Shown here: piece after piece, positions 10,241 through 13,343 of the stretch | Layout of the letters: each line of letters opens with the position of its first letter | Position numbering within the stretch: position 1 is the stretch's first letter | IMG/VR virus record: IMGVR_UViG_2921643360_000001 | Location: 1-64,000 of that record | Length of the DNA: 64,000 nucleotides | From: a virus | Strand: one strand, 5' to 3' | Program-made: the position numbers and the translations under genes | The notes under the pieces: model-generated | What the model was told of the DNA's origin: nothing | The model's database searches: none | The model's input: the letters and a program-made list of their open reading frames with translations, nothing else

Positions 10241-10498
10241 TCCCCTGTTCCTGCCATTGCATGAACGAGCTACGGGTCAAGGTCGGGTGGACGAAGACGA
10301 TCATCGCGGCGCCATACCGCATGCGATAGAGTTGGTTCATTGTCATCTCCTACGCCCAGACAACGCTGTCAAGGCTCACATAAACCGAATCCAGCACCCT
10401 TCCCGTCCGGGTTACCCGGTCGATGCGGTAGACGAATCCAAGGTGCTGCAACTTCTCCTGGGCTATCGTCATCAATCTGTGCACTGCGCGTTGGGGGT

Positions 10499-10956: not shown

Positions 10957-11370
10957 TTAGGCGGCTTTCTTGAACGTCCGGACGACCACCATCTTTTCTT
11001 CCTCGGTGACGTCCAGGTTGTAGGCCTCATCCATCCAGTCGATAGCCTCGGGCTCGCCGTGCTTGCCACCGCCGTACCAGTATGTCCAGCCTACCCATGA
11101 GCCGTCTGGAGCCTTAGCGGCTACCGACTTGCTCTCGTAGTGCCGCGACGACTGGCAGGGAAGTTTCGTTTCAACTTCGCCTTCGCGAACCTCGTAGATC
11201 GCGTCCCACTTGTCCTCGCACTCGTCGTACAGATCGTCGATGTTGTCGGCGGTCACTTCGACTTCAATCGGCGTCTCGGCCCAGTCGGCGATTCTGGCGA
11301 GGATGATGTGTTTGATCTTTTGTTCGGGCGTCATGTCTGCTCCAATAGTTGTCCTAACCGCATTGCACAA
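10957..11370 (-). CDS. hypothetical acidic protein
   Basis: 137-aa ORF; first gene downstream of the 700-bp ORF-free leader. Confidence 0.4.
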   Translation of the reverse strand: MCNAVRTTIGADMTPEQKIKHIILARIADWAETPIEVEVTADNIDDLYDECEDKWDAIYEVREGEVETKLPCQSSRHYESKSVAAKAPDGSWVGWTYWYGGGKHGEPEAIDWMDEAYNLDVTEEEKMVVVRTFKKAA

Positions 11371-12083
11371 AATACTGACGGGAGGGCGCTGTTACTGTGC
11401 CGCCGACTTCGGCTAACCTACTGCACCGCCATGCGCATGTTTCAGCGATGGGCTAACGTGGCTCAGTTTCGCGGGTACTCGTCGTTGGCAGGGAGCCCAG
11501 CGGGCCCTTTCGTCAATACTCGTCTCATGGAACGGGGCCGGCGGTTTCCATCTGATCCGGCTTGGGGCGTGGCACTGATTCCCCGCTTGTACGGCATATG
11601 CCGCTCATACCACCTATCACCGGAAGTTCGCGCCATTTAGGTCGTTCGACCGCAGGACTACCAGAGCCGGTTTCGATCTTGCTGCCCGTCACCACCGGGC
11701 TACCCGTTCCATCAAACTGCTTCTTCGGACCCATCCGGCTACACCTGGCAGGCCAGCTCCGGCCTGGGTCCGTCCTACTCCTCCACCAACCGCGCAACTC
11801 ACAAGGTCACGCGACTGCCGCAGGTGCGTTCGCTTTCTACTCGAGCGAACAGCTTTGTTCCGAGCTGCGAAAAGAAACCCCGCAGAATGGTTGGCTTAAC
11901 TACGCCTTTTGCGCACCATGGGCGCGACGTACTGTGAAGTTGTTAAAGAGCCCTCAGACTGCGAGGTGCGCCGTTGCGCGGTGTTGCTGGTATGGATAGA
12001 ACGATAGCAAACGCTCTCGAAGAACGCAAGCAAAAGCTATCGTTGATCGATAAATTTTTTTAGCGCTAGTGTTGCGCAGAAAC

Positions 12084-12105
12084 AAAAAAGCCCGCCGAAG
12101 CGGGC
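12084..12105 (-). terminator. rho-independent terminator downstream of the repressor gene
   Basis: GCCCGC-CGAA-GCGGGC hairpin, followed on the minus strand by TTTTTTGTTT. Lies 23 nt past the cI stop. Confidence 0.7.
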
Positions 12106-12127
12106 TGAACAAGCGTTTGAGTGTTTT

Positions 12128-12910
12128 TCAGGTGCTGCGATACATGCCGGATCCGCGCGGCACGATGGCGCCTACACGATGGATAGACACGATATCGGCC
12201 AGCGACCTCGTGATTGGAGGAATGCCATTGTTGATCGAACCAAGGCTGACTTCCTCATCACGGATCCACAACAATTCTTTGACGACAGCGCTGCCGTCGA
12301 CAAACTTGACCACCACATCATCACCCGGAAGAGCTTCGACGCCGGGTTCCACAACGATGTGTTCGCCACTCTTTATGCGCGGCCTCATGCTATCGCCGCG
12401 CACCTTCAAACCATAGGCCGTTGGGTCTGGTGAATGGATGTTGAGCCATCCATGGCCGTGACCTGGCGGATAGTCGTCGATACTGATAAACCCATCCGGC
12501 CCACCCTGCACTTCCCCGACCACGGCTATATCCCTCCCAGCCTTTAGTTCCAATCGCTCGCCAACGTTTGCTTCTGCTCGTGGCAGGCCTTCGATACTAG
12601 CCCCACCTTTCGGGACCGAAGGCGCAATCATGCCTGACTTTTGCCGGTTCTTCGAGATATCAGTGTCCGCTGAAATGTGGTTGCCGGTGACGCCCAAATC
12701 GAAGTAGAGAGTCGGCAAGCCAAGTTCGGACTCGAGTCGCCGCGCAGCTCCTTCGCCGAACCCGCGTCCCTCCCGATAGTTCGGGTTCAGCAGTTGTCGG
12801 ATCCGAGCCGCATCCTGGTTGTGCAGTCGAGCGAATTCAGCGGCGACCCCTCCCGCCTCCCTGTCCACTAGTTCCTGTAGCCGCTTACGGCGGTGCGCAT
12901 GTATGTCCAT
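12128..12910 (-). CDS. cI-type repressor (N-terminal HTH + C-terminal S24 LexA-like autopeptidase)
   Basis: S24 Ser/Lys dyad motifs (GDSMRPRIKSGEHIVVEP; VVKELL). Transcribed divergently from a cro-like gene. Start chosen at MDIHAHRRKRLQ (ATG 12908-12910). Confidence 0.85.
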   Translation of the reverse strand: MDIHAHRRKRLQELVDREAGGVAAEFARLHNQDAARIRQLLNPNYREGRGFGEGAARRLESELGLPTLYFDLGVTGNHISADTDISKNRQKSGMIAPSVPKGGASIEGLPRAEANVGERLELKAGRDIAVVGEVQGGPDGFISIDDYPPGHGHGWLNIHSPDPTAYGLKVRGDSMRPRIKSGEHIVVEPGVEALPGDDVVVKFVDGSAVVKELLWIRDEEVSLGSINNGIPPITRSLADIVSIHRVGAIVPRGSGMYRST

Positions 12911-12932
12911 GGCGGAATTAGAACCGAAAACT

Positions 12933-13001
12933 AGCATTTGCTGTGAAAGCAGAATTTATCATTTCAGCACGCAAATGCTTGCGTTTAGCGGAAGCATTTG
13001 C
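12933..13001. promoter_or_regulatory. operator region of the immunity switch (three copies of AGCATTTGC / GCAAATGCT)
   Basis: AGCATTTGC at 12933-12941 and 12993-13001; the inverted copy GCAAATGCT at 12971-12979. All lie in the 103-bp gap between the divergent repressor and cro starts. Confidence 0.55.
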
Positions 13002-13013
13002 TATCGTTTGTCC

Positions 13014-13343
13014 ATGGATACCTTTCGCACCTACTTCAAAGGGCTGACCAAGGCCGAACGCGACGCGCTCGCCAAACAGGTCGGTACGACGGCTGCCTAT
13101 CTCTGGCAGATCGCCTACAAACAGCGTCGCTGCAACGAGTCGATGGCTATCGAGATTGAGAAAGCATCGCAGCGCGCGGTGACGGTCGAAGACCTTCGTC
13201 CCGATGTCGACTGGGCGTACGTCCGGAACTCGGCTCAGTCGATTGCCGATAGTGAAATTGTAGACCGCGCGCAGGCGAGCGACGACGCGCAACCGCCTGT
13301 AGGTCGCGGGAGCGCAGCTAGACACAAAAAAAGCAGTCAATAA
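13014..13343 (+). CDS. Cro / YdaS-like HTH regulator
   Basis: Starts at the internal ATG (MDTFRTYFKGLTKAERDALAKQVGTTAAYLWQIAYKQRRC...). Small basic HTH protein opposite cI. The listed ORF starts at TTG inside the operator region. Confidence 0.6.
   Translation: MDTFRTYFKGLTKAERDALAKQVGTTAAYLWQIAYKQRRCNESMAIEIEKASQRAVTVEDLRPDVDWAYVRNSAQSIADSEIVDRAQASDDAQPPVGRGSAARHKKSSQ

What the first reader, a model, noticed from the sequence alone, without database searches (positions are those of the whole stretch)
11371..12083. About 700-bp ORF-free, GC-rich segment between the repressor terminator and the first early-left gene, with an OL-like operator
Seen: no convincing ORF on either strand. The 145-aa ORF at 11562-11999 has a non-protein-like composition.

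Near its right end an operator-like pair is present: GATAGCAAACGC (12003-12014) and GCAAAAGCTATC (12030-12041). These form 6-bp inverted GATAGC/GCTATC arms and closely resemble GCATTTGCTATC in the OR region.

Several local stem-loops are present, for example GTTCGCT-N9-AGCGAAC around 11828-11850.

Inference: this holds a PL-like promoter and operator, followed by an unusually long leader, a nut-like site, or a structured ncRNA. In lambda this interval would hold N and nutL.
Basis: partly seen in the sequence, partly recalled or inferred. Interest (0 to 1): 0.5.

Follow-up and report, generated by a model that had tools for sequence, protein, structure and literature searches.

The report
Unannotated tRNA-shaped phage RNA behind PL
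The seemingly empty 700 bases after the prophage repressor gene hold the early-left promoter, a host-type antitermination signal and a ~185-base intricately folded RNA. That RNA belongs to a large, apparently undescribed family of tRNA-shaped RNAs found in many phages, including P1, HK620 and Shiga-toxin phages.

Summary
The interval is non-coding. It has no PHROG or Pfam match, and homologues differ by frame-breaking indels. It is organised on the minus strand.

- **Promoter and operators.** PL is TTGCGT-N17-TATCGT at 12029-12001, identical in hexamers and spacing to PR.
- **boxA.** An exact rrn-type boxA, GCUCUUUAACAA, lies at 11951-11940.
It has six helices, an invariant pseudoknot and a loop-loop contact.
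  - My covariance model scores it 125.7 bits (E 1.7e-30).
  - 35 distinct relatives from viral and metagenome contigs and Pseudomonas phage FBPa47 show strong compensatory change.
  - Rfam 15 has no match.

Its scaffold is shared by shorter RNAs with other cores in about 116 phage records and 845 of 5426 E. coli genomes, none annotated. It consists of a 7-8 bp closing stem, a D-arm-like hairpin, and a T-arm-like hairpin abutting the 3' strand. These RNAs often sit within 4-82 nt of tRNA genes.

Most likely it is a stable, tRNA-like processed RNA carried in the PL leader. Its function is inferred, not shown.

The parts
12083..12106 (-). Intrinsic terminator of the CI-like repressor gene (AGCCCGCTTCGGCGGGCT + T run). 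It forms the right-hand border of the interval.
   Evidence: Terminator scan. The repressor at 12128-12937 matches phrog_4 and a CI-like repressor family.
12001..12041 (-). PL promoter with OL operators. The -35 TTGCGT is at 12029-12024, the spacer is 17 nt, and the -10 TATCGT is at 12006-12001. Operator-like repeats AGCAAACGCT and AGCAAAAGCT lie within 12003-12014 and 12030-12041. The predicted start is near 11994.
   Evidence: TTGCGT-N17-TATCGT occurs only twice in the window, here and at PR (12979-13007), against 0.22 expected. Sequence read. The start site is inferred.
11940..11951 (-). boxA, GCUCUUUAACAA. It matches the rrn antiterminator boxA at 12 of 12 positions.
   Evidence: It is the only exact match in the window. 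The rrn boxA-spacer sequence ugcucuuuaacaauuua is given in PMC2724277, Table 1.
11800..11960 (-). Module A, a conserved leader block that starts with boxA. It contains a hairpin at 11911-11925 (GCGCCCAUGGUGCGC, identical in three relatives). A second hairpin at 11865-11885 keeps its shape with a different sequence in relatives (UCCC-GAAA-GGGA, CCAC-GAAA-GUGG).
   Evidence: Alignment with L018 and L268. Only three distinct sequences exist, so the structure is not established. No match in the phage collection or Rfam.
11527..11712 (-). Module B, the structured RNA ('W-type'). In order it has:
- P1, AUGGAACGGG/CCCGUUCCAU
- P2, GCCCG-GUGGUGA-CGGGC
- J2/3, AGCAAG
- P3, a long variable arm
- the invariant UAGGUGGUA (11616-11608)
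- P4, GCGGC-AUAU-GCCGU
- ACAAGC
- P5, GGGG/CCCC, whose loop carries the invariant AGUGCCAC (11576-11569)
- AA
- P6, GCCGG...CCGGC, directly abutting P1'

A pseudoknot GUGGUA:UGCCAC links the two invariant blocks.
   Evidence: Covariance model R1 gives 125.7 bits, E 1.7e-30, and it is the only hit in the window with filters on or off. Covariation is shown. P1 is found in all 35 members. The anchor pattern is unique in the window, with 0 expected.
11335..11526 (-). The rest of the leader, up to the Shine-Dalgarno sequence and ATG of the first early-left gene. No conserved feature was found.
   Evidence: Folding z-score is -0.41. Similarity to the nearest relatives stops at the edge of module B.
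10957..11334 (-). First early-left gene (125 aa, phrog_25120, function unknown).
   Evidence: PHROG match at E 1.6e-38. It is unrelated to the gene downstream of the element in phage FBPa47.

Best explanation
**Shown**
- The interval is the regulatory and leader region of the prophage's early-left operon, read on the minus strand.
- After the repressor terminator comes PL, overlapped by OL operators. Transcription from about 11994 runs through an exact rrn-type boxA at about +44, a small conserved module A, and a 185-nt compactly folded RNA at about +283 to +468. It reaches the first ORF at about +660.
- The 185-nt RNA is a discrete, exchangeable module. It belongs to a family of at least 35 distinct phage sequences with a six-helix junction, an invariant pseudoknot and a covarying loop-loop contact. 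The family has no Rfam entry.
- The family is one branch of a much larger set of phage RNAs sharing a scaffold laid out like a tRNA:
  - a 7-8 bp closing stem
  - a 2-3 nt linker
  - a hairpin in the D-arm position
  - a variable central 'cargo'
  - a 5-bp hairpin in the T-arm position that runs straight into the 3' strand of the closing stem
  - base pairing between the two hairpin loops

**Inferred**
- The RNA is cut out of the long transcript by the host's tRNA- and stable-RNA-processing enzymes. RNase P would act where a tRNA follows, RNase III or RNase E on the long closing stems.
- It then persists as a stable RNA whose invariant cargo core binds a conserved host or phage partner in trans.
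- boxA recruits NusB/NusE and the host rrn-type antitermination factors. This would let RNA polymerase cross the 660 nt of untranslated, structured RNA without Rho termination, as in rRNA operons.
For: **Non-coding status and structure**
- No PHROG or Pfam hits.
- The window and FBPa47 copies differ by a 1-nt indel in the most conserved block.
- On the model-fitted alignment, 94.6% of cells are paired against 75% in shuffles. There are 207 double-change cells against 64, and 21 of 29 pairs show compensatory change.
- The sequence-only MAFFT alignment agrees: 91.6% against 78.8%, and 139 against 48. Slid controls give 29-52%.
- P1 is complementary in all 35 members with quite different sequences.
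- The loop-loop contact covaries: GCUGAU/AUCAGC, GGUGAU/AUCACC, GAUGAU/AUCAUC, UGCGA/UCGCA.

**Discrete module**
- Similarity to the closest relatives (L251, L243) ends at the element's borders.
- L268 has the same module A but a different closed cassette in the same slot.
- Divergent second copies occur close by on the same strand, some in direct tandem.

**tRNA link**
- A tRNA gene follows or precedes the element closely:
  - 4 nt after it in L198 and 70 nt after it in L233
  - 6 nt after it in Klebsiella phage ZCKP8 and 12 nt after it in Erwinia phiEt88
  - in phage P1, the element lies 82 nt after tRNA-Thr
- P1 is 7-8 bp in 22 of 35 members.
- ACC(A) directly follows P1' in 9 of 35 members, against about 0.5 expected.

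**Same genomic slot elsewhere**
- In an E. coli prophage the order is repressor, terminator, PL (TTGACA-N18-TACATT), then the element from about +5, then yfdP.

**Spread**
- 116 phage records.
- 845 of 5426 E. coli genomes, none annotated in the eight places listed.
- R1 scores the enterobacterial copies at 30-42 bits.

**Promoter and boxA**
-.
Against: - No expression, processing or binding data exist. All of the function is inference.
- The window's own copy is the least tRNA-like of the family. Its P1 is 10 bp, it has no ACC tail, its loop-loop complementarity is weak (3 bp) because L6 is expanded, and the window has no tRNA at all.
- Many copies sit just after promoters of long operons or just before terminators: PL here and in E. 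coli, pR'-qut-element-tR' in HK620, before terS/terL in three contigs, and before a terminator in FBPa47. That placement fits a cis-acting role in transcription equally well.
- The pseudoknot never varies, so it has no covariation support.
- boxA is not a general companion of the element.
- ARAGORN and the Rfam tRNA model do not recognise the element.
Confidence: 0.5

Rival explanations
1. A cis-acting processive antitermination or anti-pausing RNA. It would work like HK022 put or the Bacillus EAR element. The nascent folded RNA binds the transcribing polymerase, perhaps together with the boxA-Nus complex, and lets it read through terminators of the early-left operon. This would replace an N protein.
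For: - The element lies in the PL leader of a phage with no N gene at the N position.
- An E. coli prophage has a scaffold relative starting about 5 nt after the PL start, followed by a hairpin plus a U run.
- FBPa47 and L238 copies are followed within about 25 nt by an intrinsic terminator.
- Three contigs have it just upstream of terS/terL/portal.
- boxA lies in the same leader.
Against: - In HK620 it lies between qut and the late terminator of a phage that already has Q. Constitutive read-through there would defeat Q control.
- Copies sit inside tRNA clusters of virulent phages and of P1, and next to int/att.
- Closing stems of 13-20 bp and tandem paralogues look like excised RNAs.
- There is no second copy in the PR or late operons of the window.
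- The model finds nothing in the HK022 immunity region. put is 70 nt with two stem-loops.
Confidence: 0.2
2. A riboswitch. The six-helix junction would be an aptamer for a metabolite or signalling nucleotide, controlling transcription or translation of whatever lies downstream.
For: - A closing P1, invariant junction nucleotides and two tertiary contacts are typical of large aptamers.
- Some copies are followed by terminators or by a Shine-Dalgarno sequence within 30 nt.
Against: - Downstream genes are unrelated: an unknown PHROG, recT/recE, terminase, tRNAs, none.
- There is no recurring expression platform that overlaps P1'.
- The same scaffold carries many different cores.
- Copies lie directly before tRNA genes.
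Confidence: 0.1
3. A self-cleaving or otherwise catalytic RNA that processes the polycistronic transcript. This would resemble the hammerhead, twister, pistol and hatchet ribozymes that cluster in phage intergenic regions.
For: - It occupies an intergenic phage location near integrases and tRNAs.
- Two blocks of 9 and 8 nt are absolutely invariant and form a pseudoknot.
- Copies occur in tandem.
Against: - No known ribozyme family matches, even at E 10.
- It is larger than most self-cleaving classes.
- Nothing in the sequence identifies a cleavage site.
Confidence: 0.08
4. A decayed protein gene, such as an N-like antiterminator pseudogene, or an unrecognised small protein gene.
For: - ORFs of 57-166 aa can be drawn on both strands.
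- The 90-aa minus-strand ORF starts with an Arg-rich stretch.
- A related contig (L018) has a 79-aa Arg-rich ORF after its PL.
Against: - No PHROG or Pfam match.
- Conservation is confined to RNA helices, with compensatory changes and frame-breaking indels.
- tblastn with the L018 ORFs finds nothing in the interval.
Confidence: 0.02
5. A DNA-level element folded as single-stranded DNA, such as a priming or origin signal or a recombination site, rather than an RNA.
For: Covarying hairpins would also be kept in a single-stranded DNA structure.
Against: - It always has the same orientation as the surrounding transcription unit.
- An invariant U-G pair and further G-U pairs would be A-C mismatches on the other strand.
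- It starts about 5 nt after a promoter start in E. coli.
- It abuts tRNA genes.
Confidence: 0.03

Closest known systems
P1/P7 c4 antisense RNA and P4 CI RNA (Rfam C4, RF01695)
   Same: These are small cloverleaf-like phage RNAs encoded in the leader of an early or immunity operon. They are cut out of the leader transcript by RNase P and act as stable RNAs. This rests on my own knowledge of Citron & Schuster 1990, Hartmann et al. 1995 and Forti et al. 1995, which I did not read here.
   Different: - No Rfam C4 match, even at E 10.
- The element is about twice as long, with six helices and a pseudoknot.
- No complementary target sites for its invariant loops exist in the window.
- The two exposed loops pair with each other rather than with a target.
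HK022 put RNAs (putL, putR)
   Same: A structured RNA just downstream of PL in a lambdoid phage that has no N gene at that place, acting without a dedicated phage protein.
   Different: - put is about 70 nt with two stem-loops, and it occurs in both early operons (PMC9378689).
- This RNA is 185 nt, has a closing stem, six helices and a pseudoknot, and occurs once.
- Model R1 finds nothing in the HK022 immunity region.
rrn and lambda nut antitermination signals (boxA, boxB)
   Same: The leader has an exact rrn boxA, GCUCUUUAACAA, about 44 nt after the start, followed 14 nt later by a 15-nt hairpin.
   Different: - The hairpin loop is CCAUGGU, not the GNRA-like pentaloop of boxB.
- No N-like gene is present in the interval.
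- This concerns module A, not the 185-nt RNA.
tRNA genes and the stable 'species 1/2' RNAs (rnaC, rnaD) of the phage T4 tRNA cluster
   Same: - The order of helices resembles a cloverleaf, with a 7-8 bp closing stem and a 5-bp hairpin abutting its 3' strand.
- An ACC(A) tail occurs in a quarter of members.
- Copies are placed inside tRNA operons, 4-82 nt from tRNAs.
- T4 also carries unexplained stable RNAs in its tRNA cluster (my own knowledge).
   Different: - It is not detected by ARAGORN or the Rfam tRNA model.
- It has no T-loop or D-loop consensus.
- The elbow is replaced by Watson-Crick loop-loop pairing.
- The anticodon arm is replaced by a 40-170 nt cargo.
ROOL and GOLLD large phage-associated RNAs
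   Same: They are large, intricately folded RNAs of unknown function, common in prophages and often next to tRNA genes (my own knowledge).
   Different: - No Rfam match.
- This RNA is three to four times smaller.
- It has a different host range (Proteobacteria).
- It has a scaffold-plus-cargo design.

Membership tests
W-type structured phage RNA (family defined here, model R1) | Full-length match to the covariance model, with P1-P6 and the invariant blocks UAGGUGGUA and AGUGCCAC. | tested here: met
   125.7 bits, E 1.7e-30, model positions 1-168. The anchor pattern is unique in the window, with 0 expected. Caveat: the window sequence was one of the 31 used to build the model.
W-type structured phage RNA (family defined here, model R1) | Covarying L2-L6 loop-loop pairing of 5-7 bp. 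| tested here: inconclusive
   The window copy has only 3 bp (GGU/ACC, or alternatively UGA/UCA). Its subgroup (L018, L235, L251) shares an expanded L6.
Scaffold superfamily (P1, AAU, P2, cargo, CAAGCCGG...CCGGC, P1') | A closing stem, a linker, a P2 hairpin with a G...GA loop, and a 5-bp GCCGG/CCGGC hairpin abutting P1'. | tested here: met
   All are present in the window copy. The same scaffold scores 30-42 bits in HK620, an Stx2c phage, an E. coli prophage, ZCKP8, phiEt88 and Magnus.
Any Rfam 15 family | A match at the gathering score, or at least at E <= 10. | tested here: not met
   There were 0 matches at gathering score in the whole window. Only short chance hits at terminators appeared at E <= 10, none over 11527-11712 except Atu_L6 at 12.4 bits against a gathering score of 100.
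tRNA | Recognised by ARAGORN or by Rfam RF00005, with T-loop and D-loop consensus and an anticodon arm. | tested here: not met
   No tRNA in the window. There was no RF00005 hit on the element here or in the loci, while true neighbouring tRNAs were found.
HK022 put RNA | About 70 nt, with two stem-loops forming a V shape. | tested here: not met
   The element is 185 nt with six helices and a pseudoknot. The put description comes from PMC9378689.
HK022 put RNA | Sequence and structure relationship to putL/putR, with copies in both early operons. | tested here: not met
   R1 with filters off gives at most 2.3 bits in the HK022 immunity region. There is a single copy in the window.
HK022 put RNA | Suppresses termination in cis by binding the beta' zinc-binding domain. 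| not testable with these tools
   This needs transcription assays.
lambda-type nut site | A boxA sequence shortly after the early promoter. | tested here: met
   GCUCUUUAACAA at 11951-11940 (-) is exact and unique in the window. It equals the rrn boxA.
lambda-type nut site | A boxB hairpin with a GNRA-like pentaloop, bound by an N protein. | tested here: not met
   The hairpin at 11925-11911 has a 7-nt CCAUGGU loop. It is identical in three relatives, so protein recognition is possible, but it is not boxB-like.
lambda-type nut site | An N-like arginine-rich antiterminator gene in the phage. | tested here: not met
   There is none in the interval. The L018 Arg-rich ORF has no homologue anywhere in the window. 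A systematic search of the whole prophage for an unrelated N analogue was not done.
C4 antisense RNA / P4 CI RNA | A match to Rfam RF01695, and loops complementary to target sites in the same operon. | tested here: not met
   No RF01695 hit at E <= 10. No reverse-complement copies of the invariant block exist in the window.

The most novel reading that the evidence does not exclude
This is the first recognised member of a very widespread, so far undescribed class of modular phage RNAs. A conserved tRNA-shaped scaffold is matured by the host's tRNA-processing machinery. The scaffold has an acceptor-like stem and two hairpins whose loops pair with each other. It carries interchangeable structured 'cargo' domains.

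The W-type cargo seen here has an invariant pseudoknotted core. It would be a new ligand-binding, protein-binding or catalytic RNA domain that phages deploy early in infection.

The class would have gone unnoticed in model phages (P1, HK620, Stx phages) and in about one in six complete E. coli genomes.
Probability: 0.4. Interest if true: 0.85.

Novelty: new variant of a known kind. Interest (0 to 1): 0.72.

Why it matters
- **New RNA fold class.** A structured RNA family with this much covariation support and no Rfam entry is rare in Proteobacteria, which have been searched intensively. If the scaffold-plus-cargo reading holds, it adds a new fold class and a new principle: tRNA-like handles that carry different functional RNA domains. 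The principle would apply in phages that are laboratory workhorses.
- **Annotation.** It flags hundreds of mis-annotated 'hypothetical proteins' of 30-50 aa called over these RNAs. These calls are seen in the records for ZCKP8, Magnus and mEp460.
- **This prophage.** The position where lambda has N is occupied by boxA plus RNA modules. That points to an rrn-like, host-factor-only way of driving early transcription. The idea is directly testable with nusB or nusE mutants.
- **Tractability.** The element sits in genetically tractable systems such as P1, HK620 and E. coli prophages. The open question of what it does can therefore be addressed at once by deletion and Northern blot.

Tried and rejected
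- **Rfam.** Searches at gathering score and at E <= 10 found nothing on the window, HK620 or L268.
- **Short exact-match scans of viral contigs.** Single 14-15-mers gave mostly chance hits. These had to be screened with nhmmer and replaced by a gapped anchor pattern.
- **RNAalifold on the first MAFFT alignment.** It recovered only P2, P6 and the pseudoknot because P1 was misaligned. P1 was then found by per-sequence complementarity.
- **Closest repressor relatives.** The Burkholderiaceae genomes with the closest repressor (L002-L007) lack the element.
- **Thermodynamic folding of the two flanking leader segments.** z-scores were -1.1 and -0.4, so there is no evidence of extra structure there.
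- **More copies of module A.** One 20-mer added only L268. An 18-mer gave five unrelated coding hits. The phage collection gave none.
- **Second copy or paralogue in the window.** None was found.
- **Antisense targets of the invariant block.** None were found.
- **N-like relic.** None was found.
- **Literature.** Sequence strings and topic terms found nothing relevant. King et al. 2011 on new antiterminator RNAs (PMC3187212) is not held and could not be read. Overlap with the elements described there is therefore not excluded. The 'Pas' sRNA preprint is unrelated.
- **Downstream-gene comparison.** The downstream genes of the window and FBPa47 are unrelated.
Full report
**1. The observation**

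The gene-free interval runs from 11335 to 12127. It lies between the ATG of a 125-aa early-left gene (10957-11334, minus strand, phrog_25120) and the stop of a 269-aa CI-like repressor (12128-12937, minus strand, phrog_4).

Every ORF that can be drawn inside it lacks a PHROG or Pfam match.

The GC content of the segment (0.57-0.61) does not differ from its surroundings, so 'GC-rich' is not a feature.

**2. Promoter, operators and boxA**

On the minus strand, TTGCGT-N17-TATCGT lies at 12029-12001. The same hexamers with the same spacing occur only once more in the 64 kb, at 12979-13007 on the plus strand, in front of the Cro-like gene. Chance expectation is 0.22.

Both -10 boxes are embedded in GC(A/G)TTTGCTATCGT. 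This is therefore PL with OL, and transcription should start near 11994 and run leftwards (the start site is inferred).

About 44 nt downstream lies GCUCUUUAACAA (11951-11940). It is the only exact copy in the window. It is identical to the boxA of the E. coli rrn antiterminator, ugcucuuuaacaauuua (PMC2724277, Table 1).

boxA opens a block of about 160 nt, module A, that is conserved in two viral contigs (L018/L021 and L268):
- One 15-nt hairpin is identical in all three.

With three sequences this is suggestive only. Further searches added no members.

**3. The main element**

A 66-nt match to Pseudomonas phage FBPa47 showed two compensatory changes in a 4-bp stem.

Anchored pattern scans of IMG/VR and of metagenome contigs gave 35 distinct relatives after removal of chance hits and duplicates.

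All 35 relatives share the same order of parts:
- a closing stem P1
- a short linker
- hairpin P2
- AGCRAG
- a variable arm P3, whose base covaries (AUC/GAU, AUG/CAU, ACG/CGU)
- the invariant UAGGUGGUA
- a variable hairpin P4
- ACAAGC
- a 4-bp stem P5, whose loop holds the invariant AGUGCCAC
- AA
- hairpin P6 (GCCGG...CCGGC)
- the 3' strand of P1, which follows P6 directly

GUGGUA can pair with UGCCAC, giving a pseudoknot. It never varies, so covariation can neither support nor contradict it.

A covariance model built from 31 sequences finds one copy in the window, at 11529-11710 on the minus strand. It scores 125.7 bits, E 1.7e-30, and there is no other copy even with filters off. With the full 10-bp P1 the element spans 11527-11712.

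| Measure | Model-fitted alignment | Sequence-only MAFFT alignment |
|---|---|---|
| Cells forming standard pairs | 94.6% (shuffles 75.0%) | 91.6% (shuffles 78.8%) |
| Cells changed on both sides | 207 (shuffles 64) | 139 (shuffles 48) |
| Slid controls | 29-52% | 34-50% |

On the model-fitted alignment, 21 of 29 pairs show compensatory change.

The loops of P2 and P6 are complementary to each other, and that complementarity covaries (GCUGAU/AUCAGC, GGUGAU/AUCACC, GAUGAU/AUCAUC, UGCGA/UCGCA). The mean complementary run is 5.1 nt, against 3.6 for mismatched partners.

G-U pairs, including an invariant one, fix the folded strand as the transcribed strand. Rfam 15 has no match for the element.

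**4. It is a discrete, exchangeable module**

- The window's nearest relatives (90% and 85% identical) are similar only within the element. Similarity stops at its borders.
- L268 has the window-type module A, followed in the same slot by a different RNA closed by an 11-bp stem. That RNA is also unknown to Rfam.
- Weaker second copies with the same P1/P2/P6 but another core lie nearby on the same strand. They are in direct tandem in L235, L018 and L215, and about 320-730 nt away in L027 and L008.
- The six Burkholderiaceae genomes with the closest repressor lack the element.
- Downstream genes differ from locus to locus. They include an unknown gene, recT/recE, and terS/terL/portal. In other loci the element lies between an integrase and tRNAs, or beside an att-like tRNA fragment.

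**5. A much larger superfamily with a tRNA-like scaffold**

A BLAST search with one family member matched 116 phage records through its two ends only, P1+P2 and P6+P1', with 40-170 nt of unrelated sequence between them.

The model scores these copies at 30-42 bits, E 1e-7 to 1e-10.

They occur in:
- HK620, between pR'/qut and the late terminator
- mEp460 and Stx2 phages
- phage P1, 82 nt after tRNA-Thr
- the virulent Klebsiella phage ZCKP8, 6 nt before tRNA-Arg and tRNA-Met
- Erwinia phiEt88, 12 nt before tRNA-Phe and downstream of the Q-like gene
- the jumbo phage Magnus

Two W-type copies also abut tRNAs (L198 by 4 nt, L233 by 70 nt).

One type is present in 845 of 5426 complete E. coli genomes and another in 107. 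None of the places listed carries an RNA annotation.

In an E. coli O121 prophage the order is repressor, terminator, PL, then the element from about +5, a hairpin with a U run, then yfdP. That is the same slot as in the window.

The layout parallels a cloverleaf:
- P1 is 7-8 bp in 22 of 35 W-type members.
- A 2-3 nt linker follows.
- P2 occupies the D-arm position.
- The cargo sits where the anticodon and variable arms would be.
- P6 is a 5-bp hairpin in the T-arm position, stacked on P1.
- A loop-loop contact stands where the elbow would be.
- ACC or ACCA directly follows P1' in 9 of 35 members, against about 0.5 expected. HK620 has GCCA there.

It is nevertheless not a tRNA. ARAGORN and the Rfam tRNA model do not see it.

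**6. How it most likely works**

*Shown.* The anatomy is established, along with the family, its modularity, its link to tRNA operons and to the first few hundred nucleotides of long phage operons, and the boxA in this leader.

*Inferred.* The RNA is released from the PL transcript by stable-RNA processing. RNase P would act where a tRNA follows, RNase III or RNase E on closing stems that reach 13-20 bp in some members. It then acts as a stable RNA through its invariant core.

boxA would recruit NusB/NusE and the rrn-type complex, so that polymerase crosses 660 nt of untranslated RNA without Rho termination.

The main rival is a cis-acting antiterminator. It fits the placements after PL and before terminators, but it is hard to reconcile with three observations:
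- the HK620 position upstream of a Q-controlled terminator
- copies inside tRNA clusters of virulent phages
- the tandem paralogues

It is not a put RNA. The size and fold differ, and the model finds nothing in the HK022 immunity region.

The riboswitch and ribozyme readings remain possible, because the core is invariant and pseudoknotted. They have no specific support. A protein-coding or pseudogene reading is rejected.

**7. Caveats**

- The window's own copy is atypical for the tRNA-like traits. It has a 10-bp P1, no ACC tail, a weak loop-loop contact and no tRNA nearby.
- Module A rests on three sequences.
- The start site, the processing and all functions are inferred.
- The novelty claim rests on Rfam 15 and on a limited literature search.
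- One directly relevant paper, King et al. 2011 on newly discovered antiterminator RNAs, could not be read.

Noticed in passing
window 12979-13016: The Cro-like gene's ATG (13014) lies only 7 nt after the PR -10 box (13002-13007). Its mRNA is probably leaderless.
   Followed up: no
L268:9560-9760: A viral contig with the window-type module A carries a different RNA in the slot of the 185-nt element. It is closed by an 11-bp stem (CGUGAAUGGCG...CGCCAUUCACG). It has no Rfam match.
   Followed up: partly
L018:11187-11620 (minus strand): In the closest relative of the leader, PL is followed by a 79-aa ORF with an arginine-rich N-terminus (MNSSQRRKAYRAMPK...) and a 61-aa ORF before module A. The first could be an N-like protein. 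Neither has a Pfam hit or a homologue in the window.
   Followed up: partly
L281:2265-2640 (phage P1, OP279344.1 65398-65769): Phage P1 carries an unannotated 136-nt scaffold-type RNA 82 nt after tRNA-Asn/tRNA-Thr, and upstream of tciABC and ban. This probably explains the 237 plasmid-borne copies in E. coli genomes.
   Followed up: partly
L266:2501-2592 and L273:2002-2093: The temperate E. coli phage HK620 and the virulent Klebsiella phage ZCKP8 carry the same scaffold with the same short cargo. This implies recent exchange between very different phages.
   Followed up: no
L275:1390-3920 (Klebsiella phage Magnus): A 2.5-kb run of annotated 30-50-aa 'hypothetical proteins' surrounds a 232-nt scaffold-type RNA. 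The ORF calls look spurious, and the region may be an RNA gene cluster.
   Followed up: no
L232:9294-9413: A Betaproteobacteria-1 RNA (RF02932, 59.8 bits) lies about 480 nt upstream of the W-type element on the same strand. L009 also carries a DUF3800-VII RNA elsewhere (10395-10480).
   Followed up: no
L227:8545-8600, L229 (just upstream of 7095), L262 (just upstream of 3100), L241:300-325: T-arm-like fragments (such as GCGGGTTCGATTCCCGC) flank several copies without being called as tRNAs. They may be att-site tRNA fragments or tRNA-like processing signals.
   Followed up: partly
L001:4695-4860 / L008:4971-5091: Pseudomonas phage FBPa47 and its relative have a second, weaker scaffold-like element (17.9 bits) in another intergenic gap of the same early-left operon. 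It lies about 700 nt upstream of the main one.
   Followed up: no
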